From a virus: a stretch of DNA of 64,000 nt. Positions 2,707 to 24,920 of the stretch are shown here, one piece after another. Each line of letters opens with the position of its first letter. Positions within the stretch are counted from its first letter, which is position 1. Made by a program: the position numbers and the translations under genes. Under the pieces are notes generated by a model that was not told the DNA's origin, did no database searches, and was given only the letters and a program-made list of their open reading frames with translations. The stretch covers positions 120,708 to 184,707 of IMG/VR virus record IMGVR_UViG_3300013126_000010. One strand, written 5' to 3'.

Positions 2707-2739
2707 TCTAGTAGCACTACGGTATGTTAAAGTATTTTG

Positions 2740-2811
2740 CTCCCCCATCTCGATTCGAACGAGACTCACGATGCTTAACAGGCATGCCGCACACCTAGTG
2801 CGTTCAGGGGA
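2740..2811 (-). tRNA. tRNA-Asn(GUU), no encoded CCA
   Basis: TCCCCTG/TGGGGGA acceptor, CT GTT AA loop, TCTCG-TTCGAAT-CGAGA T-arm, G73. Confidence 0.87.
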
Positions 2812-2992: not shown

Positions 2993-3553
2993 TTAATCGA
3001 AAAAATTATACCAGACAGTTGGGCCTGATTCATCCAAAAATTTAGTGGAATATCCACTTCCAAATCTTTCAAATAGATAGCATTTATCGATATCCATTAA
3101 TGTTCCTGAATATGGTTCAATCTCTCCAGAAGATTTATTTAAAATAGAAACTTTCATTATATGATGATTAACGATTGATTTAATCAAACTCTCACCTTTA
3201 TTAAAAATTGCACCATCTGCGATAATAGGATAATCAGATTCTTCTTTTACTGAAAATATCAGCCATTTTATAGCAGATGTGTTTCTATATTCTGGAAATA
3301 CATAAATCATGTCAACATTATTATACATAATATGATTTATAGAAACGGATGATAATTTTATTAATCCTAATATAGTATTAGATTCTTTAACTAACAGATA
3401 GGTATTATTATTTTTATATAATGCAATATTATCATTTACTTCTACAATTTTAGATGATCCGACAAAATAATTATCATACACCCATTTATATGATATTTTA
3501 GAATCATCAAATGATCCAGCTGAAAATGATTCTATTATTTCGTTAAATCTCAT
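2993..3553 (-). CDS. hypothetical protein, possible GNAT-like fold
   Basis: VDMIYVFPEYRN resembles GNAT motif A; MRFNEIIE leader. Confidence 0.45.
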   Translation of the reverse strand: MRFNEIIESFSAGSFDDSKISYKWVYDNYFVGSSKIVEVNDNIALYKNNNTYLLVKESNTILGLIKLSSVSINHIMYNNVDMIYVFPEYRNTSAIKWLIFSVKEESDYPIIADGAIFNKGESLIKSIVNHHIMKVSILNKSSGEIEPYSGTLMDIDKCYLFERFGSGYSTKFLDESGPTVWYNFFD

Positions 3554-3590
3554 TAAATTATACCATAAATTGTATCATATTTATCACTAA

Positions 3591-3789: not shown

Positions 3790-4080
3790 ACCTAAAACTT
3801 ATTTGCTATTACTTATGCAGTAATAGCAAATCCAGCATAAACGTCATCGTTTGCGTTTAATTTTTTGATTTTTACATCTTTCTCGATGATTCTAAATTAT
3901 TCTTTCTCAACCACGTCGAAAACCTTTCATCCCCATAATAAGAGCATTGTTGCTATAATTAGGATTGGGTTCAGGTGTTATCGCTAACAAGGGAGTTCAA
4001 TGCCCTTATTGTGGAGATGGGCGTATCGAAACGCCGTCCGCAATTTTTACTTAAATAATCTTTCAGCCATTTCTAGCAAC
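3790..4080 (-). ncRNA. ssrA: two-piece (circularly permuted) tmRNA
   Basis: acceptor piece ending GCGGAC-GGCGTTTCGATACGCC-CATCTCCA (4012) precedes an intervening segment and the coding piece starting GGGGATGAAAGGTTTTCGAC (3934); G3.U70; tag ORF 3854-3813 ANDDVYAGFAITA* with stop-codon hairpin; outer boundaries approximate. Confidence 0.85.
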
Positions 4081-5220: not shown

Positions 5221-5511
5221 TCATACTCCAAAGTATGTTGTCAACTCGTTTATCATTATAACTGGCTGTTCATTTTCAGTAAATATTTTAGGAATTACGT
5301 GCTGATACATATATACATCTTCTTGAATATTTGATAATTCGGTTGGATTATATATCCTATAAAGATCATCAGTAAAATTATTGGTGTGTTCATGATGATA
5401 CTCATAGAATTCATAAAAACTATTAATTATAGAATCCCCTTTCAAAATATCCATTAGTTTTTTACGAGAATTTACTGTTATTTCAGCAAGTCTCATATAC
5501 CCCATCCCCAT
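5221..5511 (-). CDS. hypothetical protein
   Basis: ORF on the coding strand. Confidence 0.5.
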   Translation of the reverse strand: MGMGYMRLAEITVNSRKKLMDILKGDSIINSFYEFYEYHHEHTNNFTDDLYRIYNPTELSNIQEDVYMYQHVIPKIFTENEQPVIMINELTTYFGV

Positions 5512-5690: not shown

Positions 5691-5888
5691 TTATTTTCTA
5701 AATCGTGGCATGTTACCAATATAACCATCAGGAATAAAGCATTCAAGCATTGGGATAAGAGTACTTAGTTCAATTACTGGTGTTTTTTCTACTAATTTAT
5801 ATTCACCATCTATTAAAAGATAATATACATCATCAACATGATGATCCAATTGTGGTTGGAATATTGTTTTTAGGTCTGTTAACGTCAT
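5691..5888 (-). CDS. hypothetical protein
   Basis: small ORF in operon. Confidence 0.5.
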   Translation of the reverse strand: MTLTDLKTIFQPQLDHHVDDVYYLLIDGEYKLVEKTPVIELSTLIPMLECFIPDGYIGNMPRFRK

Positions 5889-5937
5889 TTTTATATAAAC
5901 CTGTTGTTCATATGTTATTTTCTAAATAGTGGCACGA

Positions 5938-6330
5938 TCAATAGATTTTATTCATTATTTCATTAAAGACATCATTGTCTGTATAAGTTTGATAATCTAC
6001 TGTAAAATCAAAAACATCGCTTATGTCGTTACCGAATACATTAATTAATGCAGTTCTCCACTCATTCATACAGGAATCATACTCAGATGGATCGATTTCA
6101 TATGAAGTATAACCAATACTATTAATCCCGTCAGCTGGTCTACATGAAAAATCATGAACTCCATATTTAGACTCTAGTTCATCAATAATTTCTTCACATT
6201 CTTCTGATGGTTCAAAGAAGAAATCTTCAAAAAACTCAGATTCGGCATTAAATAAAAAACCTTTCCAGGTGTGTTGTTTGGTTTTTTGATTGTAAAAGTT
6301 AAAATAGAATACTGAATTATGTGTTGGCAT
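5938..6330 (-). CDS. hypothetical acidic protein
   Basis: 130-aa ORF. Confidence 0.6.
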   Translation of the reverse strand: MPTHNSVFYFNFYNQKTKQHTWKGFLFNAESEFFEDFFFEPSEECEEIIDELESKYGVHDFSCRPADGINSIGYTSYEIDPSEYDSCMNEWRTALINVFGNDISDVFDFTVDYQTYTDNDVFNEIMNKIY

Positions 6331-6707: not shown

Positions 6708-6904
6708 ACTTCTGCATCATATTCTTTTTCAGTCATGCAAATGATTTTAACAGTATGAAAATGATTTGCCAATACATCATCTTTCAGTCTATCTTTTTCG
6801 GCATCTTCAAAATTGAAGTAGAACTTTTCAGTGGTTTTGTGCATATCAGAATAAATGATACCATCTTTTCGTTTTTGCATTATTACATAAACTTCATATG
6901 CCAT
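6698..6904 (-). CDS. hypothetical protein
   Basis: coupled ORF. Confidence 0.5.
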   Translation of the reverse strand: MAYEVYVIMQKRKDGIIYSDMHKTTEKFYFNFEDAEKDRLKDDVLANHFHTVKIICMTEKEYDAEVCR

Positions 6905-7113
6905 TATACTAACTCACTTAATTTGTCAACAGCTGATTCAATATTGTCAATGGCTTCATCACAATTATTTAAATGATCTTTAACTTCATATAACAATTCA
7001 CGCAATTTATCACGTTCTTTTGACAATGATTCTTTGTGTTTTGTCAATTCTTTGATAGCTTTATCGATATTGTTTGTTTTTTTCATAATTATATACAGGT
7101 TGATGTTTTTCAC
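6904..7113 (-). CDS. small coiled-coil protein
   Basis: heptad-like composition. Confidence 0.5.
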   Translation of the reverse strand: MKNINLYIIMKKTNNIDKAIKELTKHKESLSKERDKLRELLYEVKDHLNNCDEAIDNIESAVDKLSELV

Positions 7114-7157
7114 ATTTCAGGTATGATTGTTTATTTGCGGTAATCAACCTAAATTAG

Positions 7158-7282
7158 CAGGATAGTTTTTATACGTTGCTCTACCAGTCTGAGCTAACTT
7201 CTCCATAGTATTTGGGAGAAGTATGGGATTTGAACCCATGACCAACGGCTTAACAGGCTATTTAATTGCTGTAACTATCCTA
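7158..7282 (-). ncRNA. cassette E2 enclosing circularly permuted tRNA-Asn(GUU)
   Basis: TAGGATAGTT/AACTATCCTG stem plus TTACAGCAA; 3' half 7258-7213, 9-nt linker, 5' half 7203-7174; halves rebuild GAGAAGT/ACTTCTC acceptor and ACGGC/GCCGT anticodon stem. Confidence 0.8.
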
Positions 7283-7293
7283 ATTCATAATTT

Positions 7294-7476
7294 TTATTCT
7301 ACAATTTTACCACTTTTTACAAATCTAGCAGTATTTGCTTGATCTTGAATAGCTTTGATCATCAATTTACGCCAAACTTTATCAGGTGATGATGATACTT
7401 GTTTAGGAATTTTAACCTTAGCCTGTGGTTTTGATTTTTTAACTACTTCTTTTACTGGTTGTTTTTTTGCTGCCAT
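7294..7476 (-). CDS. small basic protein
   Basis: Lys-rich 60-aa ORF. Confidence 0.55.
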   Translation of the reverse strand: MAAKKQPVKEVVKKSKPQAKVKIPKQVSSSPDKVWRKLMIKAIQDQANTARFVKSGKIVE

Positions 7477-7538: not shown

Positions 7539-8999
7539 TTATTTACTGATTTCAATATGATTACCAGCTGTTAGTTTAACAATCTGTGGTTTTGATGCAA
7601 TAAATCTAGTCTTAGTTGAGAATGAGATGTGTTCATACGGACTATCATCAGTTACATTCATTTCACCACCAATCATTATAGTTCCAATCACATCAATAAC
7701 ATGATTTGAAGTAAAATCCCCTCTAAATCTCGTAAACATGTCCCCTAGAAGATGTTTTATTGTATTTGCCTTGTATGTTACTCGTTGATCTGCGGTAATC
7801 CCATACATTGTTGCACCAAATCTTGGTAATCGGAATTTGAATTGGGTATCATCGGGTTGTGGAATCCAGTATGGGTAAACTATTTGCAAGTTTTTCTTTT
7901 CCTGATCATCAAATTCATGAATACCATCACCAAGTAGAGTCGCAGAAACCACAACTATCTTATTTGCCCGTAACAATGCCTTAATGGTGTTTACATTCGC
8001 CGTAGTGGGAATAATAACCTCACTAACTGGGTTATTTGCAGCATATTTAAGAACTGTTTTAGCACCAACGGCATAATCATTGTCTTGATCACCAATTATA
8101 CTAACTGATTTGGTTGGATATTGGTGTGTAACATAATCACCAGCTATCATTCCTTCACCATATAACCCTTCATTCCAATAAAAAGTATAAGTTGATGGTG
8201 TTTTACCCGGTACATTAGTAATCGGCAGTAATGTTGGTACTTTATGTGACTCTGAAAAGTCTTGAATTGGTTGCCAGTTATCAGCAAATCCCCCAACAAT
8301 CATAAATGGTGGATTATTTTTGTAATATTCTTCTAATTGCGATGACCATGTATCAGTTGGACCAGTCAATTTCCATGTATTATATGATATTTTTCTAAAA
8401 TCTGATATAACTTTGTTACCTTGTGAATTATGAATGGTAAAAAATTCTTTTAATTTATCATCAAATGCTGTTTTATCATAATCATTGGTAGAATCTGTGA
8501 TAATGGATACTATATTAACAGAATCTGATGTCACACCTACCAATGGTTGTGCATCCATAGATTTTAAATATTCAATTAGACTAGCAATTTCATTATCATT
8601 ATATGAAAATGTTGGCATAATAGGATTTAATTTTCTACTTGCTGGATCTATTCCCGTTTTTATAACCTTTTTAATGGTTGATTCAGTATATCCTGGTCGT
8701 GATGGTATTTTATGAAACGTATTTTGTAAATATGTTTGAATAGCTTTATCCATGGAATTTCGGTCAATGATGGTTTCTCTACCAACTACGGGGATACCAT
8801 TATATTGTTCTGATAAACTTTTATAATTGATTGGCAATACGATCACATTACCTTCTGGCATACCTTTACCAGATTTTAAATGGCATTCAACACATGCTCG
8901 TTGACCATGTAATCCATTATTATAGATTTGTGACCCAACATTGTCATTAGCCATGACAACACCACTCATTACACTTAATAACATTACGATCTTTTTCAT
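7539..8999 (-). CDS. exported c-type cytochrome fused to a type I periplasmic-binding-like domain
   Basis: signal peptide, CVECH heme motif, distal MPTF Met-ligand-like motif, C-terminal PBP1-like region. Confidence 0.7.
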   Translation of the reverse strand: MKKIVMLLSVMSGVVMANDNVGSQIYNNGLHGQRACVECHLKSGKGMPEGNVIVLPINYKSLSEQYNGIPVVGRETIIDRNSMDKAIQTYLQNTFHKIPSRPGYTESTIKKVIKTGIDPASRKLNPIMPTFSYNDNEIASLIEYLKSMDAQPLVGVTSDSVNIVSIITDSTNDYDKTAFDDKLKEFFTIHNSQGNKVISDFRKISYNTWKLTGPTDTWSSQLEEYYKNNPPFMIVGGFADNWQPIQDFSESHKVPTLLPITNVPGKTPSTYTFYWNEGLYGEGMIAGDYVTHQYPTKSVSIIGDQDNDYAVGAKTVLKYAANNPVSEVIIPTTANVNTIKALLRANKIVVVSATLLGDGIHEFDDQEKKNLQIVYPYWIPQPDDTQFKFRLPRFGATMYGITADQRVTYKANTIKHLLGDMFTRFRGDFTSNHVIDVIGTIMIGGEMNVTDDSPYEHISFSTKTRFIASKPQIVKLTAGNHIEISK

Positions 9000-9060
9000 A
9001 TTTTTTCGTCTGTAGTTAATAAAATTACTTCTTAAATACCCTGCATAAGATATTTAAGAA

Positions 9061-9082
9061 GTGACCCTCAAGAGAAGGTCAC
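9061..9082 (-). terminator. hairpin between oxidase and cytochrome genes
   Basis: GTGACC/GGTCAC inverted repeat. Confidence 0.4.
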
Positions 9083-9094
9083 TAATATTACCGA

Positions 9095-12000
9095 TTATTT
9101 CGCAACAGTCGGTGAGGTTGGGCTAGAAGGAACACTCGCACCAACTGCGTTTTTAGATTGAACTCTAAACATGTATGTTACATTGTTAGACAATCCTTTA
9201 ACAGTACCAGTTGACACGTTTGGTCCCAACGCAACAATAGTTGATGCATTGGTCCATCCTTTTCCAGCTGTACAGCTTGCGATCTTTGTTGGAGTGCTTG
9301 CAGTACATTTTTGTATTACAAATGTGGTATTGTTGTTTGATGTATCAGTCCATGTTACATCTACTGTATATGGACTACCAACAGTACCTGATACAGCACC
9401 ATTAATTATAGGAGTTGATGGTTTTGCCTTCATATTAACTACTGCAATATTACTAGCTGGACCAGCAGTATTACTTATCAATGGTGTTACTCTGAATGAA
9501 TATGTCACATTTTTAGCTAATGCCATCGTAGACACAAAATTCATGTTATTACCACTACCACTAAAAGTACCAGCTAATGTTGTCCAGTTATTAGTAGTCG
9601 ATGGTGAATATTCAACGGTATAACCAGTTTGCCCTGTTGACGTGTTAGTCCACGTTAAGGTAGTACCATTAACAGTCGTTCCAGATGCTGATGTAATAAC
9701 ACCTGACAAATCGGTTACTGCATTAAGAGTTGACCCAACAATATTTACTGAGTATGATACCGGTGCAGAACTTACACCTTTGCTATCGGTAACGGTTACA
9801 GTAAAGTTAAATGTCATCCCGTATACTGGAGTTCCACTTAAAACACCATTTGCAAATGTCACACCATATGGAACGGTACCTGTCAGATTCCATGTGTATG
9901 GACCTGTTCCACCAACAACACCAATGGTTTGGCTATATGCTGTACCAATTGCACCAGCTGGTAATGTAGCTGTAGTAATTGATGGAGTCAAGTTTTGACC
10001 AATTACTACGGTGTACGATTGTGATGCCACAGATGGCGTTGGATTTGCACTATCTGTTGCAACAATACTAAATGTATACGTTCCTGCAGTAGTAGGTGTG
10101 CCACTAATTACTCCATTGGCAACAGATAACCCTGGTGGAACTGTACCAGTAGTTGACCATGTATATGGTGTAATACCACCGCTTACACTAATTGGTTGAC
10201 TGTACGCTACATTAATATTACCGTTTGGTAACACTGTTGTCGCAATTACTGATTTAGTAATTACAATGGTAAACGCTCTTGCAGATGATTTAACATTTTT
10301 ACTATCAGTAGCAGTGACTGAGAAGTTAAATGTACCTGCTGCAGTAGGTGTTCCGCTAATAATACCATTAGTCAATGTCAACCCATTTGGCAATCCACCA
10401 GTCAATGTGAATGTATATGGACCAGTACCACCACCAGCTGTTACCGTTTGGTTGTAAGCATTACCCATATTACCATTTGGTAACGATGATGTCAATACAC
10501 TCGGAATCACACTTGATGTTCCAACAGTTAAGGTAGACTGAACTGTTGTTCTTTTCACTGGATTCGAATAATCAGAAACAGTTACACTAAATGAATATAT
10601 ACCAACAGCAGTAGGTGTACCACTTAACTTACCCGATGCATTCAATGTCATTCCTGGTGGCAATGCCCCTGCAGATACTGTGAATTTATAAGGAGCAGTA
10701 GGTGTTACAGTGTTAGTCAAACCACCATCAGCAGTGTAAGTTACTGGATTATATGCTACACCCAAAACACCATCAGCTAATGCTGGTGCAGTGATGTTTA
10801 ATGGCATAACCATTACCAATGGACGCATCATATCGTGCTCTTCATGTCCCAACAAGTGACAATGCCAGATATATTCCATACCATAATCAGTTAATGTATT
10901 CAACAATGTCATACCAGCACTATCAGTCATTGTAACCCCCAATGGTGATGCAGGATCTAATGGTCTAATAGAGTTTGGTAATTTCCATGGCAAATATGGT
11001 TGCACTGGTCTTACAGCAATGAATGTATCCAATGCTGGTGACAATCTAATTGTTTCTTTCATACCTTGTTCTTCTGGGTCAATCGGAAAAACAGTGCCAT
11101 CGATTGCAATACGACCAATTAATTGAACATTTACCAAATGGAAGTGCATATAATGTTGGTCAATACCTTGGTGATCAAGTCTCCAAATTTGGGTACCATC
11201 ACCCAATGTACCAACAATCGGATAATTACCAGTACCATCAACAAATGTTGGATCAACAATTTCTGTTGGTGGGTTGAAGAAGCTGTATGGATTAGCTACA
11301 CCAGCTTGTGGCCCAAGATTTGGCAAAGCACCACCCAACAAAGCGTTCATTCTACCATATTCCATGTCCCAGTTCTCGATAATAGCTTTATCTTGAATTG
11401 GTAATACTACATTAGTTGCACTCAACGTATTTGTATTTGGGTCCCATGGTTTAAATGAAAATGATGGGTCTGCCAAATTTGGTTGTTGTTCTGGAATTGT
11501 TTTACCATAAGCAGCACTATATGATGATGTTGGTACCAATGGTGCTTCTTGTGCCGTTTTGTATATTGATGGCCATGATGTTAACAATTTACCCATATTA
11601 AATGGAGCATCAGGTGTTCCATTAGTCATGCCAACCGTTTTAACAGCATCACAGTAATACAAACTCATCGTGTCAGTAATATTTGGATCGCATACATTGA
11701 CTTGCATAATAGTTCTAGTGTTAGGACCATATCCTGCCAACGTAGATGGTGCGCCACCTTGGAATGTATTATCTGGGTTACCTGCATAATAATCATATCG
11801 TTCATCAAAGAATGGGTATGGTGCAGGAGCATCATTATACAATATAACAGTTTTTCCTTTATATTTTGTAAAATCTACCAATGTGTCATGACGTTCCGCA
11901 GGTCCAACAACCAAACCATGTTCTTTTACACTTAGAGTAAAAATAACTCGACGTGATTGTTCATATGTTACTGGTTGAGTTGGTAATGTTTGTGGTAATG

Positions 12001-14374
12001 GTAACCATCCACCTTCATTTGCCAATATAGTAAATTGTGGACCAACACTTGCAGGATCAGGAGCACCACCATTGCGACCATCAGCAGGCCATGTTGCTGG
12101 ATATGCTGGATTCAACATTGCTGGTACCATTTTTACTTCTGCATTTGGTGCTGCCAGTGCAATGGCACCAGAACCAATACCACCATTAGAATCAGTAATA
12201 GTAACAGTAGGAATATCATCATACGCGGGTGATGCAGGTTGAGTAACAACCAAATCAACAATAGTCTGATCTAAAACTGCAGTTGCTACTGGAGTTACTG
12301 CACCAACCCCGTCAATAGATACTGTCGGTGCTGATGTATATCCGCGACCACCATTACTAACAGTGATTCCAGCGATATTTCCATTTGCATCCAATGTTAC
12401 AAACGCAGTTGCACCTGAACCACCACCACCTGTTATCGTAACAGTAGGTGTTGCCAAGTATGCAGGTGTATTAGTTAATGGATCTACTGTTATTGATGAT
12501 ACTATTCCTGAAACCACTGCAGATACTTGAGCAGGAGTACCAATAACGCCATTTTTCCAACCACCATTAAGGGTAACAATAGGATTTGTATATCCTGTTC
12601 CACCTTGAATCAATGATAATCCAATAGGGTCTGCAACATACCAGTTTAATGATAATGTGCGATCATCTGCACCATTCAATACTTTAAGTCTATGTGTATT
12701 AGGAGTTACAGATAGTTTTGGCCATGCTGTTCCATTAACAGTCGCACTATCCATAAATGATTCTGGAGTGCTAGTTGGATTAGTTGTACCCGGAACTTGT
12801 GGTGGCTCATTTGGTGTAGAACCATCTGGATTATACAACAAGTTTGCAATTGGACCAACAATCTGGGTTGTAATTGGAGGATAAATCCATGTATTGTAAT
12901 CCCAGCGACCAACATCATTAACACCACCTATTGACGTTGGGTGTTGGTTAGGCATATAAACATGTGGTAACCACAAATCACCATCCGTTGGGACTGCCGG
13001 TGTAGTTGCTGTAGCAGGATGTGAACCCCATGCCCATGTTGGATCTTGTTGAGCAATTCTAGTAGGATCTACCCATGTTTTATCTTGAATGATCAACGGG
13101 ATACCAATACCATCAGGCATTTTTGCTAATCCTGGGTTACCACCAGAATTGTTGGTACCATTAATCAAGTCATCTTCAACAGGATCTTTTAAAATATAAC
13201 CAGCTGCCATACCATCATACACATTCAATCTGGTAATACCATATGCATGGTCATGATACCACATGAATTTTGCAGACTGTTGGTTAGTGTAGTACATTGT
13301 GGTAGAACCTTGACCTGGATCATTGGTTGCACCAGGAACCGAACATACTAATTGTGCAGCACATACATCAATTGATTGACCTTGAGCATCGAACCACATA
13401 TCTGGAACAAATTTCAGACCAGTAGCACGTTTGTTAGGGTTAGTTTCACCAACTGCTGCGGTCCATTGATGCGGAGTACCATCAGAAATATAAGGTGTTG
13501 CACCACCATGTAAATGCACGGTAATTCTATTTTGAGAATACTGTGGACCAGCTCCCATAACAGTGTCATCAACCGGTAATGGTAAATTACCTGCCACACC
13601 AGTAGGCAAATAGTTGGTAAATTTCACCCTAACTGGTTTATTTTTATCAGCAATGATGTTTGGTCCCAAATAGTTTGGAGCATGTACAGCAAATACCTGA
13701 TTACCCGCTAAATCTTTAATTGGGGTGCTATCTGGATATGTTAATGCAACATGATCAGACACTTTACCTTGTGCTGTTAGCGTTGACATTACTGCAGGAG
13801 TTTCAATTTGAACATATCCACGCAACGTTGTTGGTGATAATGCGCTGTGCATTTTTTCAGTATATTGAACTACTGCAATCTCATAATAATCAGATGCATA
13901 TTCAACACCATCTTGTGGAACAGCTGGGGTTGCAGCACCACCATATGTTGTAGTGTCAGGCACAGCTACAACCAATTCCATGCCATTGGCATTAGCATAT
14001 CCTACTCGTGGCAAATCATCAATGAATTTTTTCAATCCACCAGAAACAATGGGTGCTCCTGTAAGAGGATCTAGTATATATGCTTTCGTTATAGGATCGG
14101 TTGCCAGTGTTGGTTGTGGTGAGTTTGCATAGTTCGGGGTGGTACTGAATTAATCAGGTTGTACTCCAAAAGTAAACTGATTCCCTGCACCAATACCAGA
14201 AGAGAATGTAGGAATATAGGCAGTAGGATAACATGGACCAACACCATATGATTTTTGACCCGGACAGGTTTGCCCATAGCCATTACCACTCCCCGGATTT
14301 TGAAGGACTGCAAATGATGATTGCGACATTGCGACCATCATTGCAGTAGTTAATAATTTATATTTTCGCATCAT
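9095..14374 (-). CDS. giant multicopper oxidase (MofA/OmpB-like) with four putative Ig repeats and FN3-like tail; interrupted by one in-frame TAA at 14150-14152
   Basis: all four Cu motifs VHLHGG, WYHDH, HYMHFH, WHCHLLGHEEHDMM; upstream 74-aa signal-peptide ORF is in frame and joined by an open 38-codon stretch (PD*FSTTPNYANSP). Confidence 0.85.
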
Positions 14375-14679: not shown

Positions 14680-14814
14680 TGTATTTTACCTCACTTCATT
14701 AAAAAGATGTTAAATTTAGATTAAATTTATTGATATTGCTATCCTCTGTATGTTATTGATAAAAGAAAATGTAAGATACATGCATATCTTATAACCGATG
14801 ATTCCATTCTATAT

Positions 14815-14960
14815 CAGGATGTATTAATTTTTTGACAGTCGCGTATACCACTTTCGCCACTTACCAGCCACCCGGAGGCTTATGGTCATTAGATGGGACT
14901 TGAACCCACACGTCTTTCGACAACTGTTTTTGATAAATTAAATTTGCTGAAAACATCCTA
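14815..14960 (-). ncRNA. cassette E3 enclosing circularly permuted tRNA-Leu(CAA)-like gene
   Basis: TAGGATGT/ACATCCTG stem plus TTTCAGCAA; 3' half (AT CAA AA ACAGT, variable arm, T-arm, CCA) precedes Leu-type 5' half ending ACTGT; acceptor stem only partly complementary. Confidence 0.7.
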
Positions 14961-15259
14961 AAAATTATCACATTGGTATGATTATTTTCCTACCAACATC
15001 ATTATAATCTATAATATCATGAAAAATTTGAAGTGTCAATCATTTTTGGAAAATTGTAAATATAAAACCTATTTTTTAAAATAATTAGTACACGCTGGCT
15101 GTATGCAACCAATTATTTTAAACCATCGTCGCTTCATGCTGCTGCCACATATTGGGCAAAAATCAGTGCACCATTCATTTATTAGGCGAGAAGGTGGTGG
15201 AGTTGGTTTTATTGGTGTTTTTATGTAATTTAAAACATTCAGAAGGTGTGAGAATATTT

Positions 15260-17661: not shown

Positions 17662-17733
17662 TATTCCCGACGAATCCTGCCATCGTACTGCCGCCTTGAA
17701 AGGGCGATGTTCTAACTTTTAAACTACGGGAAT
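17662..17733 (-). tRNA. tRNA-Glu(UUC), atypical T-arm, no encoded CCA
   Basis: ATTCCCG/CGGGAAT acceptor, TCGCC-CT TTC AA-GGCGG. Confidence 0.75.
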
Positions 17734-21255: not shown

Positions 21256-21310
21256 CAGGATACTTTTTATTTTCGCCAATGAAATTTTTTAATTTGCTGA
21301 ATGTATCCTA
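21256..21310 (-). ncRNA. cassette E4 (short; small TTTC/GAAA hairpin cargo)
   Basis: TAGGATAC/GTATCCTG stem plus ATTCAGCAA; 4 nt downstream of tRNA-Ser CCA. Confidence 0.7.
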
Positions 21311-22734: not shown

Positions 22735-22995
22735 CTTTATTTATTATCAAAATCATAGTCTCCATTTCGGAGACTATGTTAATCAGTGTTCGTATTTCGT
22801 TTAATAACATTTTTTACTACAATTGCTGAATATGATTCCCAATTAGTTAGAATCTCATTCAATTTTTTTAATTTTTCAAATTTATCATCATCAAACATTT
22901 GTTTAATGTTATTATCTGATTTAAGTTCTGTGATTTTTTCCATATTTGTATAATAGCACATTTTCAAAAGATGTGCAACTTATTTATCATTTTAC

Positions 22996-23057
22996 CAGGA
23001 TAGCTTTTACGGTTTTGATTAGAAGTCAAATGTATTAAGCTTGCTGAAACTATCCTT
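22996..23057 (-). ncRNA. cassette E5 carrying a bare Arg(UCU) anticodon stem-loop
   Basis: AAGGATAG/CTATCCTG stem plus TTTCAGCAA; TTTGA-CT TCT AA-TCAAA at 23030-23014. Confidence 0.75.
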
Positions 23058-23096: not shown

Positions 23097-23151
23097 CAGG
23101 ATGTATTTATTTTCGCCAAATGAAATCTTTTAATTTGCTGTAAACATCCTA
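23097..23151 (-). ncRNA. cassette E6 (near-paralog of E4)
   Basis: TAGGATGT/ACATCCTG stem plus TTACAGCAA; TTTC-ATTTGGC-GAAA hairpin; begins at the predicted +1 of the promoter at 23158-23186. Confidence 0.75.
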
Positions 23152-23451: not shown

Positions 23452-23508
23452 CTGGATCACGTTTTTCAAATTTACTGTTTGATTGTTTAGATTGCTGAAA
23501 TGATCCAA
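23452..23508 (-). ncRNA. cassette E7 carrying a bare Tyr(GUA)-like anticodon stem-loop
   Basis: TTGGATCA/TGATCCAG stem (compensatory changes) plus TTTCAGCAA; TCAAA-CA GTA AA-TTTGA. Confidence 0.72.
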
Positions 23509-24803: not shown

Positions 24804-24920
24804 CAGGGTAGCAAATATGTTTTACCGCTAAACTACCATAGTGACCAACTCTATGGCTGGGATTCGAACCCAGGACTTTTCTTTACGATAGAAATTATTA
24901 AAATTGCTGAAACTACCCAA
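24804..24920 (-). ncRNA. cassette E8 enclosing circularly permuted tRNA-Thr(CGU)
   Basis: TTGGGTAG/CTACCCTG stem plus TTTCAGCAA; 3' part (anticodon arm TTTCT-AT CGT AA-AGAAA, T-arm CTGGG-TTCGAAT-CCCAG, CCATAGA) 24894-24849; 6-nt linker; 5' part ACTATGG-TA-GTTT-AGCGGTA-AAAC-A 24842-24818. Confidence 0.8.

What the first reader, a model, noticed from the sequence alone, without database searches (positions are those of the whole stretch)
7158..7282. Circularly permuted tRNA-Asn(GUU) in cassette E2
On the minus strand the 3' half (GC-CT GTT AA-GCCGT, TGGTC, ATGGG-TTCAAAT-CCCAT, ACTTCTC-CCA) comes before a 9-nt linker and the 5' half (GAGAAGT-TA-GCTC-AGACTGGTA-GAGC-A-ACG). Joining ACG to GC (position 29/30) restores a perfect 5-bp anticodon stem, and the acceptor strands pair 7/7. 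Base 73 would be C rather than the usual Asn G73. A normal tRNA-Asn also exists at 2740-2811, so this copy is redundant and may have another role.
Basis: partly seen in the sequence, partly recalled or inferred. Interest (0 to 1): 0.8.

Follow-up and report, generated by a model that had tools for sequence, protein, structure and literature searches.

The report
Phage tRNA-shaped Y-like RNA
This is a real small-RNA gene of a large phage: a complete tRNA look-alike written "inside-out" and held shut by a conserved handle that travels with a Ro60-like protein, so it is most likely a tRNA-mimicking partner RNA of that protein and not a spare asparagine tRNA.

Summary
On the minus strand of 7158-7282 the 3' half of a tRNA precedes the 5' half. 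The acceptor strands pair 7/7, and joining ACG to GC gives a 5-bp anticodon stem. ARAGORN calls the joined halves tRNA-Asn(GUU). No such arrangement appears in 200 shuffled windows.

The flanks also matter. A 10-bp closing stem followed by ACAGCAA encloses the tRNA body. This "handle" occurs at least 11 times in the window and in hundreds of phage contigs. In the records tested it tracks a DUF2828/DUF7788 protein, which profile comparison shows to be a remote Ro60 homologue. Relatives with the same tRNA core on another handle, including cultured Vibrio phages, instead carry canonical Ro60 (TROVE). Rfam's nearest family is YrlA (39 bits, below threshold).

Unlike YrlA, this RNA keeps an anticodon hairpin. 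Across relatives the triplet changes freely, yet the loops obey tRNA rules (U33; G36 goes with G37). The same RNA also exists in normal tRNA order, with the handle inserted at position 29/30.

Best reading: a Y-RNA-like tRNA mimic that is not rejoined into a tRNA. It is a new variant of a known kind. This scan has met the ACAGCAA handle family before in at least 72 other genomes.

The parts
7273..7282 (-). Closing stem of the handle, 5' strand (UAGGAUAGUU). It pairs with 7158-7167.
   Evidence: 10 contiguous pairs and present in the MFE fold. In 21 of 23 relatives the equivalent stems have different sequences but still pair over 7-10 bp. Mismatched partners average 3.7 bp.
7266..7272 (-). Conserved handle motif ACAGCAA, single-stranded, directly 3' of the closing-stem strand.
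   Evidence: Found at the same place in relatives as [A/U/G]C[A/U]GCA[A/U/G] and in at least 11 handle copies in this window.
7259..7265 (-). Variable spacer (UUAAAUA) between the motif and the anticodon-like hairpin.
   Evidence: Its length is 6-18 nt and its sequence is not conserved in relatives.
7248..7258 (-). Anticodon-like hairpin: G30-C31, 7-nt loop CUGUUAA (U33, G34 U35 U36, A37 A38), G39-C40.
   Evidence: Pair 31:39 covaries (CG 25, AU 3, GC 1). The loop keeps U33, R37 and A38 while the triplet varies.
7245..7247 (-). C41 G42 U43. These pair with A27 C28 G29 (7174-7176). Stacked on the hairpin, they complete a 5-bp anticodon stem with a strand break at 29/30.
   Evidence: Paired in 98.9% of cells in the 30-sequence alignment, though almost invariant.
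7240..7244 (-). Variable region UGGUC (positions 44-48, with C48 for the Levitt pair with G15).
   Evidence: NGGUC is nearly invariant in alignment A1.
7223..7239 (-). T arm AUGGG-UUCAAAU-CCCAU.
   Evidence: 4 of 5 pairs show changes on both sides across relatives. It aligns to the T arm of Rfam YrlA.
7216..7222 (-). Acceptor stem, 3' strand (ACUUCUC, positions 66-72).
   Evidence: 7/7 pairing with 7197-7203. All 7 pairs show changes on both sides across relatives.
7204..7215 (-). Loop closing the acceptor stem (CCAAAUACUAUG).
   Evidence: Length is 3-30 nt and the sequence is unconserved in relatives. At least nine of 53 permuted relatives begin this loop with NCCA, against fewer than one expected by chance.
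7197..7203 (-). Acceptor stem, 5' strand (GAGAAGU, positions 1-7).
7178..7194 (-). D arm GCUC-AGACUGGUA-GAGC, preceded by U8 A9 at 7195-7196.
   Evidence: Invariant in alignment A1, partly because the search pattern required it. It aligns to the D arm of Rfam YrlA.
7174..7177 (-). A26 and A27 C28 G29, the 5' strand of the upper anticodon stem.
7168..7173 (-). A-rich linker UAUAAA between G29 and the closing stem.
   Evidence: It is 5-14 nt and A-rich in relatives.
7158..7167 (-). Closing stem of the handle, 3' strand (AACUAUCCUG), ending in the family's conserved CCUG.
7096..7150 (-). Neighbouring small handle RNA (AGGUUGAU-U-ACCGCAA ... AUCAACCUG) with short non-tRNA cargo, starting 7 nt after the element.
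   Evidence: Read from the sequence and folded. It has the same handle signature.

Best explanation
The element is a gene for a small non-coding RNA of about 125 nt. It belongs to a large phage family of 'handle-tagged' tRNA mimics.

Shown from sequence and comparison: the RNA's two ends pair in a 10-bp closing stem followed by ACAGCAA, which together form the handle. The handle encloses a full tRNA body whose acceptor stem is sealed by a loop. The anticodon stem is interrupted at 29/30, where the handle branches off, so a three-way junction leaves an intact anticodon-like hairpin.

Inferred: the handle is the docking site for the phage's Ro60-like protein (DUF2828/DUF7788 family), as the stem of a Y RNA is for Ro60. 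The tRNA-shaped part is displayed to factors that recognise tRNA. The RNA works as a Y-RNA-like ribonucleoprotein and the halves are not ligated into a decoding tRNA.

More speculative: the particle serves phage counter-defence or RNA/tRNA surveillance.
For: 1. Anatomy. The closing stem, the motif and all tRNA elements are present.

2. Nearest curated family. Rfam's best match is YrlA, the tRNA-like Y RNA, with E 6e-7. At 39 bits it is below the gathering score of 69. YrlA RNAs are described as resembling circularly permuted tRNAs with closed acceptor stems (10.1101/312249; PMC4201824).

3. Family and covariation. Of 119 matches to a D-arm pattern, 48 are permuted in the same way. The acceptor, T and 31:39 pairs covary. 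Closing stems differ in sequence but still pair. An ACAGCAA-anchored scan gave 53 permuted and 22 normal-order tRNA-like cargoes.

4. Protein partner.
- DUF7788 genes occur in 24 of 40 records that carry the element. That includes, by my sorting, all 12 ACAGCAA-type records that are at least 40% complete.
- They occur in none of the 27 comparison records that lack a handle.
- Of the 10 positives in that comparison set, 9 turned out to carry the handle in normal order; the tenth (L075) has no clear handle.
- Phage DUF2828/DUF7788 proteins align to phage TROVE/Ro60 proteins with hhalign probability 98.2%, E 5e-14, over 342 columns including the vWA DxSGS motif.
- Their best PDB matches by profile are TROVE/Ro60 chains.
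- This phage has such a gene about 11 kb upstream of the element.

5. Second handle type. Relatives with the same tRNA core on a different handle (GUUACUUC type) include Vibrio phages Va1 and TDDLMA. They carry canonical TROVE proteins instead.

6. The handle is the constant part. At least 11 handle copies lie in this window. Their cargo ranges from 30 to 141 nt and most of it is not a tRNA.

7. Not a decoder.
- Triplets differ between near-identical relatives: L014 GUG against L044 UGG, and L229/L241 GGA against L252 GUA.
- A34, A33 and 8-nt loops occur.
- The triplet duplicates a canonical tRNA of the same locus in 17 of 71 cases, about half of the cases where the locus holds at least 10 tRNAs. 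The element therefore does not fill gaps in the tRNA set.

8. Literature.
- Bas63 gp130, described there as structurally like Ro60, counters the Ppl defence system. The authors suspect that some neighbouring 'tRNAs' are Y RNAs (bioRxiv 10.1101/2024.10.10.617714).
- Listeria phage CKA15 shows very abundant unannotated transcripts near its tRNA genes, upstream of the Rsr-like CKA15_055 (PMC12282133).
- Three ACAGCAA handles lie exactly there, upstream of the homologous gene, in both A511 and CKA15.
Against: - No binding, expression or processing data exist for this RNA or this phage.
- The Ro60-like gene of this phage is split by a ~1.1-kb insertion and may not be intact. It lies 11 kb away.
- The defining Ro60-binding motif of YrlA (GNCGAAN0-1G) is absent here, and the Rfam score is below threshold.
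- More than ten handle RNAs per genome is many more than the one to four Y RNAs known per organism.
- Several features look as if tRNA-type selection or processing persists:
  - The anticodon loops follow tRNA grammar. G36 goes with G37 in 10 of 11 loops, and non-G36 never does (0 of 49). U or G dominates at position 34.
  - NCCA is enriched at the start of acceptor loops.
  - Normal-order relatives have free acceptor ends, and Rfam scores one of them as a tRNA at 46.5 bits.
Confidence: 0.7

Rival explanations
1. A true circularly permuted tRNA-Asn gene. The precursor's ends are brought together by the flanking stem, cut, and ligated at 29/30. The acceptor loop is then opened by RNase P and 3' processing, giving a normal decoding tRNA-Asn.
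For: - The joined halves are a canonical tRNA-Asn by ARAGORN, with every tertiary nucleotide in place.
- Homologues keep the half-to-half pairing.
- The flanking stem places G29 next to G30.
- The phage's other tRNA-Asn is atypical and invisible to the Rfam tRNA model.
- Some related phages carry RtcB near the Ro-like gene, for example CKA15_050 and A511.
Against: - The triplet is not conserved among close relatives, and A34, A33 and 8-nt loops occur.
- Position 73 varies, and no CCA follows a discriminator in this copy.
- No bulge-helix-bulge lies at the junction, and the spacer on the 5' side of it varies from 6 to 18 nt.
- The same handle encloses cargo that could never yield a tRNA.
- RtcB is absent from the held part of this genome and from 8 of 10 complete related records.
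- The triplet is as often redundant with a canonical tRNA as not.
Confidence: 0.07
2. A handle-bearing two-piece tRNA-like RNA. RNase P cuts before G1 in the acceptor loop, and the new 3' end is trimmed and receives CCA, as shown for Mycobacterium smegmatis YrlA. The two pieces stay together through the acceptor, anticodon and closing stems. The molecule then engages CCA-end or anticodon-reading factors (synthetase, EF-Tu, modification enzymes or nucleases) while still carrying the Ro60-like protein. This extends the best explanation; it does not replace it.
For: - The 7-bp acceptor stem is the feature that makes M. smegmatis YrlA an RNase P substrate, with CCA added in vivo (PMC4201824).
- At least nine of 53 permuted relatives start the acceptor loop with NCCA, one of them as a 5-nt loop ACCAU.
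- Normal-order relatives have free acceptor ends from the outset.
- This phage also encodes a permuted two-piece tmRNA, so its host must already mature such precursors.
Against: - In this copy the loop begins C-CAA, or CCA with no discriminator.
- Many relatives have 3-5-nt loops (UUU, GAAA, CUUG) that are unlikely RNase P substrates.
- There are no experimental data.
Confidence: 0.25
3. A non-functional relic: leftovers of two tandem tRNA genes or of a rearrangement, with complementarity that is accidental or decaying.
For: The region is rich in tRNA genes and repeats.
Against: - There were zero comparable arrangements in 200 shuffles.
- The same permuted architecture is kept, with compensatory changes, in dozens of unrelated phage contigs and in cultured Vibrio phages.
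- The body is unlike this phage's own tRNA-Asn.
Confidence: 0.01

Closest known systems
YrlA-type Y RNAs bound by Ro60/Rsr in bacteria and mycobacteriophages (Rfam RF02553; Chen et al. 2014, PMC4201824; Wang et al. 2018, bioRxiv 10.1101/312249)
   Same: - The 5' and 3' ends pair in a stem that docks a Ro60-family ring protein.
- The stem encloses a T arm, an acceptor stem sealed by a loop, and a D arm, in that order. This is the topology of a circularly permuted tRNA.
- The tRNA tertiary nucleotides are kept.
- The gene travels with a Ro60-family gene.
- Rfam's best match here is YrlA (E 6e-7).
   Different: - This RNA keeps an anticodon-like hairpin, which YrlA lacks.
- The handle motif is ACAGCAA after a short covarying stem, not GNCGAAN0-1G.
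- The partner is a DUF2828/DUF7788 protein that Pfam's TROVE model does not detect.
- The score of 39 bits is below the gathering score of 69.
- There are ten or more handle RNAs per genome.
- The same RNA also occurs in normal tRNA order, with the handle as an internal arm.
Mycobacterium smegmatis YrlA (Chen et al. 2014, PMC4201824)
   Same: It has a 7-bp acceptor stem. It is cut by RNase P in the acceptor loop and receives CCA in vivo, which is a precedent for two-piece maturation of such an RNA.
   Different: Cleavage is untested here. The M. smegmatis RNA has no anticodon hairpin, and its partner is canonical Rsr.
Circularly permuted tRNA genes of Cyanidioschyzon merolae, other algae and some archaea (established knowledge; review PMC4090602 listed, not read)
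   Same: In the gene the 3' half precedes the 5' half, separated by a short linker that joins the acceptor strands. The flanks pair next to the junction.
   Different: - Those genes use a bulge-helix-bulge cut by the splicing endonuclease, then ligation into a circle.
- Their junctions lie in loops, and their anticodons are conserved and needed for decoding.
- Here there is no bulge-helix-bulge, the junction is inside the anticodon stem, the triplet is variable, and the setting is bacterial-phage.
Two-piece (permuted) tmRNA (Rfam RF04321), present in this same window at 3813-4070
   Same: It is also a permuted tRNA-like gene in which the acceptor 3' piece comes first. Maturation removes the segment that joins the acceptor strands.
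   Different: The element here has no tag reading frame and no G3:U70, and Rfam gives no tmRNA_permuted match at this site. Its D arm and anticodon hairpin are tRNA-like.
Phage Ro60-like proteins: Thermus phage phiLo Ro60 with Yrl1/Yrl2 (PMC12135203); Bas63 gp130, a counter to the Ppl defence (bioRxiv 10.1101/2024.10.10.617714); Listeria phage CKA15_055 (PMC12282133)
   Same: These are phage-encoded Ro60-shaped proteins placed next to tRNA clusters, with suspected or shown small-RNA partners. A511 gp57 and Felixounavirus Alf5 gp043 match the DUF2828-type protein query, and CKA15_055 sits at the position equivalent to gp57. ACAGCAA handles lie beside all three.
   Different: phiLo uses CGAA-motif RNAs without a tRNA shape. 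For Bas63 and CKA15 the partner RNAs were only conjectured, and neither paper, in the passages I read, describes a handle or permuted tRNA cargo.

Membership tests
YrlA (Rfam RF02553) / Y RNA of Ro60 | Score at or above Rfam's gathering threshold (69 bits). | tested here: not met
   39 bits, E 6e-7 at 7151-7261(-). Relatives score 35-59 bits.
YrlA (Rfam RF02553) / Y RNA of Ro60 | The 5' and 3' ends form a stem enclosing a T arm, a loop-closed acceptor stem and a D arm (permuted tRNA topology). | tested here: met
   The closing stem covaries.
YrlA (Rfam RF02553) / Y RNA of Ro60 | Ro60-binding module with GNCGAAN0-1G on the 5' strand (Chen et al. 2014). | tested here: not met
   The 5' strand carries ACAGCAA instead.
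YrlA (Rfam RF02553) / Y RNA of Ro60 | Encoded with a Ro60/TROVE-domain protein. | tested here: inconclusive
   Pfam TROVE is absent from the held genome. A DUF2828/DUF7788 gene, homologous to TROVE proteins at hhalign probability 98.2%, lies about 11 kb upstream but is split by an insertion. Across records the handle and this protein co-occur.
YrlA (Rfam RF02553) / Y RNA of Ro60 | Physical binding to the Ro60-family protein. | not testable with these tools
   This needs RIP, CLIP or EMSA.
Circularly permuted tRNA gene (algal/archaeal type) | The 3' half lies upstream of the 5' half, and the halves reconstitute a cloverleaf. | tested here: met
   ARAGORN calls the joined halves tRNA-Asn(gtt).
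Circularly permuted tRNA gene (algal/archaeal type) | A bulge-helix-bulge at the junction for the splicing endonuclease. | tested here: not met
   The junction is flanked by a 14-nt single strand on the 5' side and a 6-nt single strand on the 3' side, and then by a plain helix.
Circularly permuted tRNA gene (algal/archaeal type) | Anticodon conserved among orthologues (a decoding function). | tested here: not met
   The triplets vary, including between near-identical copies.
Circularly permuted tRNA gene (algal/archaeal type) | A mature contiguous tRNA produced through a circular intermediate. | not testable with these tools
   This needs RNA sequencing. A phage RtcB is absent here and in most relatives.
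Two-piece tmRNA | A tag reading frame and G3:U70 alanine identity. | tested here: not met
   G3 pairs with C70, there is no frame, and Rfam tmRNA_permuted matches only 3813-4070.

The most novel reading that the evidence does not exclude
The handle RNAs are a programmable display system. A Ro60-like ring protein holds RNAs that present authentic tRNA parts, here a full tRNA with a genuine Asn-type anticodon arm. These parts act as bait or decoy for tRNA-directed host defences (anticodon nucleases and the like), or as a platform that recognises and rescues damaged tRNAs. The displayed anticodon is retargeted quickly by evolution while the tRNA loop grammar is kept. Some copies are opened by RNase P and gain a CCA end.
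Probability: 0.2. Interest if true: 0.85.

Novelty: new variant of a known kind. Interest (0 to 1): 0.68.

Why it matters
Ro60/Y-RNA particles are known from animals and bacteria. What the tRNA-like part of bacterial Y RNAs is for has remained open since 2014.

This family is widespread in phages. More than 700 cultured phage genomes carry the protein, among them Felix O1-like coliphages, A511/P100-like Listeria phages, KVP40-like vibriophages and mycobacteriophages. In it the mimic is pushed to a complete tRNA, with an anticodon arm that follows tRNA rules yet changes identity between close relatives. The same RNA also exists in both circular permutations.

That points to anticodon-arm recognition as part of the function. 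The Ro60-like protein gp130 of Bas63, a Felix O1-like coliphage, has been reported to counter a bacterial defence system. The question is therefore testable in tractable phages, including ones that grow on E. coli K-12.

There is also a practical consequence. Some of these genes are currently missed or annotated as 'tRNA-OTHER/pseudo'.

Tried and rejected
- ARAGORN and the Rfam tRNA model on the native sequence made no call, as expected for a permuted order.
- A TROVE (PF05731) search of the phage's own genome was negative. This led to the DUF2828/DUF7788 gene instead.
- The adjacent 486-aa and 1646-aa ORFs are a cytochrome c/binding-protein fusion and a multicopper-oxidase-like giant protein. 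They are unrelated to the RNA.
- My first control set for DUF7788 was contaminated. Of its 10 positives, 9 carry the handle in normal tRNA order. I re-read the control accordingly.
- I looked for pairing between the anticodon-like loop and other single-stranded parts of the RNA, by eye on several members. I found none.
- Rfam found no group I or II intron in the insertion that splits the Ro60-like gene. PHROGs gave nothing for the ORF inside the insertion or for the 60-aa ORF next to the element (7294-7476), and only a weak hit for the 69-aa ORF at 6904-7113.
- RtcB as an obligatory companion ligase is rejected: 0 hits in the own genome and 5 of 30 in relatives.
- CKA15's most abundant transcripts, CKA15_059-061, are not ACAGCAA handles. 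The three handles lie in the unannotated stretch nearer CKA15_055. I could not verify whether that stretch is one of the paper's 'highly transcribed unannotated regions'.
- The promoter scan found no full sigma-70 site upstream on the minus strand. Only a TAGAAT box 13 nt upstream is visible by eye.
- Literature searches for permuted tRNAs in phages and for DUF2828 returned nothing relevant.
Full report
**Observation.** Read on the minus strand, 7258-7174 holds the elements of a tRNA in this order:
- G30-C31
- the loop CUGUUAA
- GCCGU
- a 5-nt variable region
- a T arm
- the acceptor 3' strand
- a 12-nt loop
- the acceptor 5' strand
- U8 A9
- a D arm
- A26
- ACG

All standard tertiary nucleotides are present. 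ARAGORN and the Rfam tRNA model do not call the element in this order. Once the halves are joined at 29/30, ARAGORN calls a 74-nt tRNA-Asn(gtt). A strict scan for this permuted arrangement finds one site in the window and none in 200 dinucleotide-preserving shuffles.

Two corrections apply. ARAGORN alone calls the 'normal' tRNA-Asn at 2739-2811, and the Rfam tRNA model does not report it even at E<=1.

**The flanks.** UAGGAUAGUU (7282-7273) pairs over 10 bp with AACUAUCCUG (7167-7158). The 5' strand is followed directly by ACAGCAA. The whole RNA is thus a three-way junction:
- a closing stem ('handle');
- the tRNA core, reached through the 3-bp helix 27-29/41-43;
- a 2-bp, 7-nt-loop hairpin that stacks on that helix to complete an anticodon arm.

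A permissive Rfam scan gives YrlA, the tRNA-like bacterial Y RNA, as the best match: E 6e-7 at 39 bits, below the gathering score of 69.

**Relatives.** blastn of 3 kb around the site against GenBank phages hit only the element itself, in five Vibrio phages and in unannotated DNA. Pattern scans of IMG/VR gave many more. Of 119 matches to a D-arm pattern, 48 are permuted in the same way.

In a 30-sequence alignment all 7 acceptor pairs and 4 of 5 T-stem pairs show changes on both sides. The 31:39 pair of the small hairpin occurs as C-G, A-U or G-C. I had selected the sequences for acceptor and T pairing, so the percentage paired is partly circular. The diversity of pair types is not.

The closing stems of 21 of 23 ACAGCAA-type members pair over 7-10 bp although their sequences differ. 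Mismatched 5'/3' partners average 3.7 bp. A covariance model of the core finds a second, more divergent permuted element in this window at 24816-24891.

**Two handle types, two proteins.** One set of relatives has the ACAGCAA handle, as this window does. Another set has a bulged helix ending in GUUACUUC directly before the hairpin; it includes L003, L039, L057, L109 and the Vibrio phages.
- Pfam DUF7788 is found in 24 of 40 element-bearing records. By my sorting that includes all 12 ACAGCAA-type records that are at least 40% complete.
- The GUUACUUC-type records instead have TROVE (Ro60) genes.
- In a comparison set of 37 phage records, the 27 without any handle had no DUF7788. Of the 10 positives, 9 proved to carry the handle and one (L075) is unclear.
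- Twelve phage DUF2828/DUF7788 proteins align to six phage TROVE proteins with hhalign probability 98.2% (E 5e-14, 342 columns, including the vWA DxSGS motif). Their best PDB matches by profile are TROVE/Ro60 chains.
- This phage has such a gene about 11 kb upstream of the element. It is in two pieces separated by ~1.1 kb that contain an opposite-strand ORF.
- tblastn finds the protein in 710 GenBank phage records. These include Felix O1-like coliphages, KVP40-like vibriophages, A511/P100-like Listeria phages, Twort-like staphylococcal phages and mycobacteriophages. Annotators call it 'RNA-binding protein' or 'Ro-like RNA binding protein'.

**The same RNA in normal tRNA order.** In L012, L025, L034, L043, L090, L116 and L006 the order is acceptor 5' strand, D arm and ACG, then the handle. 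Here the handle's closing stem is capped by a loop of the type CUUGUCAAG. ACAGCAA, the spacer, the anticodon hairpin, the T arm and the acceptor 3' strand follow.

Rfam scores L012 as a tRNA at 46.5 bits over a 113-nt span. A cultured example is Aeromonas phage Ahp1, where the gene has the CUGUUAA loop, is annotated 'tRNA-OTHER / tRNA-Pseudo', and lies 3 kb from the Ro-like gene.

An ACAGCAA-anchored scan gave 53 permuted forms, 22 normal-order forms and 25 unresolved. The bodies and anticodon arms are of many kinds: Ile, Phe, Lys, Thr, Gly, Arg, Tyr, Ser and a class II body. In many of them the entire 5-bp anticodon arm lies 3' of the handle, which puts the junction at 26/27. The window's element is thus one circular permutation of 'a tRNA with a Ro-handle arm'.

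**The handle is the constant part.** At least 11 handle copies lie on the minus strand of this window and three more lie just upstream of it. Several follow a TATAAT-like box by about 6 nt. Their cargo is 30-141 nt and is mostly not a tRNA. One of them starts 7 nt after the element (7150-7096).

**The anticodon-like loop.** This feature separates the RNA from YrlA, which 'lacks the anticodon loop'. Across relatives the loop keeps U33, R37 and A38, but the triplet varies: GUU, UGU, UGG, GUG, UUU, UGA, GUC, UCC, GAU, GGU and GAA.

Near-identical copies differ in the triplet: L014 GUG against L044 UGG, and L229/L241 GGA against L252 GUA. A34, A33 and an 8-nt loop also occur. The triplet repeats that of a canonical tRNA in the same locus in 17 of 71 cases, about half the time where the locus has at least 10 tRNAs. 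These facts argue against a conserved decoding role.

The loops nevertheless obey tRNA grammar. Among 60 distinct U33 loops, G36 goes with G37 in 10 of 11 and non-G36 never does (0 of 49). The Fisher p of 1.5e-10 is not corrected for relatedness. U or G dominates at position 34. Authentic anticodon-arm shape therefore seems to be selected.

At least nine of 53 permuted relatives start the acceptor loop with NCCA, once as the whole 5-nt loop ACCAU. This recalls M. smegmatis YrlA, whose 7-bp acceptor stem is cut by RNase P and receives CCA in vivo. In this copy the loop begins C-CAA, so the point stays open here.

**Literature.**
- Chen et al. 2014 defined YrlA and its GNCGAAN0-1G motif.
- Wang et al. 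[quoted passage not shown]
- PhageMaP reports that Bas63 gp130, structurally like Ro60, counters the Ppl defence. The authors guess that some adjacent 'tRNAs' are Y RNAs.
- The CKA15 study reports very abundant unannotated transcripts near the tRNA genes, upstream of the Rsr-like CKA15_055. It also detects that protein in virions.

I find three ACAGCAA handles in the unannotated stretch immediately upstream of the homologous gene in A511 and CKA15. I find four handles next to the gene in Felixounavirus Alf5, one with permuted tRNA-like cargo. I could not verify that the CKA15 handles are the reported abundant transcripts. CKA15_059-061, the most abundant, are not handles. Searches for phage permuted tRNAs and for DUF2828 gave no description of this RNA family.

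**Interpretation.** Shown:
- the structure;
- its conservation and covariation;
- the two permutations;
- the association of handle type with Ro60-family protein type;
- the variability and grammar of the anticodon loop.

Inferred: the handle docks the Ro60-like protein, and the RNA acts as a Y-like tRNA mimic without being ligated.

The rejoining model is weakened by several results:
- the variable triplets;
- the lack of a bulge-helix-bulge;
- the variable spacer at the junction;
- handles whose cargo is not a tRNA;
- the rarity of phage RtcB (0 in the own genome, 5 of 30 relatives).

It is not excluded without RNA data. Cleavage of the acceptor loop with CCA addition is a plausible extra step (about 25%). 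A bait, decoy or repair role against tRNA-directed defences is the most interesting reading that remains open (about 20%).

**Prior notes of this scan.** A note on this genome pointed me to a 'Ro60-like gene' upstream, which I then verified myself. After my analysis, a word search showed that the scan has described the ACAGCAA handle with a DUF2828 partner in at least 72 other genomes, with the same reading.

New in this report:
- the retained, grammar-obeying anticodon arm with its junction at 29/30;
- the same tRNA core on a TROVE-linked handle in cultured Vibrio phages;
- the enrichment of NCCA at the start of the acceptor loop;
- the links to the Bas63 and CKA15 experiments.

**Limits.**
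- The genome record is about 52% complete.
- The Ro-like gene here is interrupted.
- No transcript data were available.
- Sequence sets were gathered with patterns that fix parts of the D arm or the handle.
- Counts are not corrected for phylogeny.

Noticed in passing
window 24806-24920 (-): A second, more divergent permuted tRNA-like handle RNA: closing stem GGGUAG/CUACCC(UG), motif UCAGCAA, hairpin loop AUCGUAA, T arm, 7-bp acceptor stem closed by GUUGGUC, and D arm GUUU/AAAC. The 27-29/41-43 helix is nearly lost. The core model scores it at 45 bits. An extended -10 box (TGTGCTATAAT) lies about 25 nt upstream.
   Followed up: partly
window, minus strand: 1590-1675, 2859-2950, 7096-7150, 14814-14961, 21256-21310, 22749-22839, 22997-23056, 23097-23151, 23452-23508; L004 (G000:108000-121000) 9379-9545, ~8743-8860, ~11334-11435: Further copies of the handle (AGG-stem, [A/U]C[A/U]GCAA ... 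stem-CCUG) with 30-141 nt of varied cargo. Several follow a TATAAT-like box by about 6 nt. The two shortest (21256-21310 and 23097-23151) share a cargo that contains GGCGAAAA, which recalls the CGAA motif of Y RNAs.
   Followed up: partly
L004 (G000:C1:108000-121000) 8806-8408 and 7310-6279, minus strand: The phage's Ro60-like DUF2828/DUF7788 gene is in two pieces: residues ~3-133 and ~119-472 of homologues. About 1.1 kb separates them and carries a 310-aa ORF on the opposite strand (weak DUF7487 match). Rfam finds no intron there. Whether it is an intron, a mobile insertion or a pseudogene is unknown.
   Followed up: partly
window 3813-4070 (-): Permuted (two-piece) tmRNA gene, Rfam RF04321 at 104.7 bits, in a phage.
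   Followed up: no
window 2739-2811 (-): The tRNA-Asn(GUU) called by ARAGORN has A8 and a 4-bp anticodon stem. The Rfam tRNA model does not report it even at E<=1. In the other direction, Rfam calls a tRNA at 17662-17733 that ARAGORN misses.
   Followed up: partly
L265 4995-5108 (Aeromonas phage Ahp1_CNU-2021, MT161459.1 11731-11844); also Synechococcus phages B3/B23: Cultured phages carry the normal-order form: a tRNA body with the handle inserted at 29/30 and, in Ahp1, the loop CUGUUAA. GenBank annotates these genes as 'tRNA-OTHER' (in Ahp1 also 'tRNA-Pseudo').
   Followed up: partly
L266 3201-3258, 3289-3348, 3359-3466 (Listeria phage A511); L268 ~3252-3560 (CKA15); L267 5255-5320, ~5416-5490, 5876-5942, 5964-6080 (Escherichia phage Alf5): ACAGCAA handles lie in unannotated DNA right next to the Ro-like gene of well-studied cultured phages. 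In Alf5 two of them (5876-5942 and the one with permuted tRNA-like cargo, 5964-6080) overlap an annotated opposite-strand hypothetical CDS. In CKA15 an RtcB gene ('tRNA splicing ligase', CKA15_050) lies 1.3 kb downstream of the Ro-like gene.
   Followed up: partly
L007, L008, L013, L026, L040 (about 45-kb IMG/VR phages): A tRNA-like gene with acceptor stem, D arm and T arm, but with only a mini arm (ACG-UAUAAACUAG-CGU) in place of the anticodon arm. These records have no handle and no DUF7788 gene.
   Followed up: no
L048 6462-7036: A ROOL RNA (Rfam 290 bits) sits inside a dense tRNA array of a 220-kb phage that also has a TROVE gene and a GUUACUUA-type permuted element.
   Followed up: no
L239 (IMG/VR), normal-order handle RNA: The anticodon-like loop is CUUUAAA, giving the triplet UUA, which would match the UAA stop codon.
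   Followed up: no
window 7539-14035 (-): The ORFs next to the element are a cytochrome c / periplasmic-binding-protein fusion (486 aa) and a 1646-aa protein with multicopper-oxidase, Ig-like and FN3 domains. This stretch has a higher G+C content than its surroundings.
   Followed up: no
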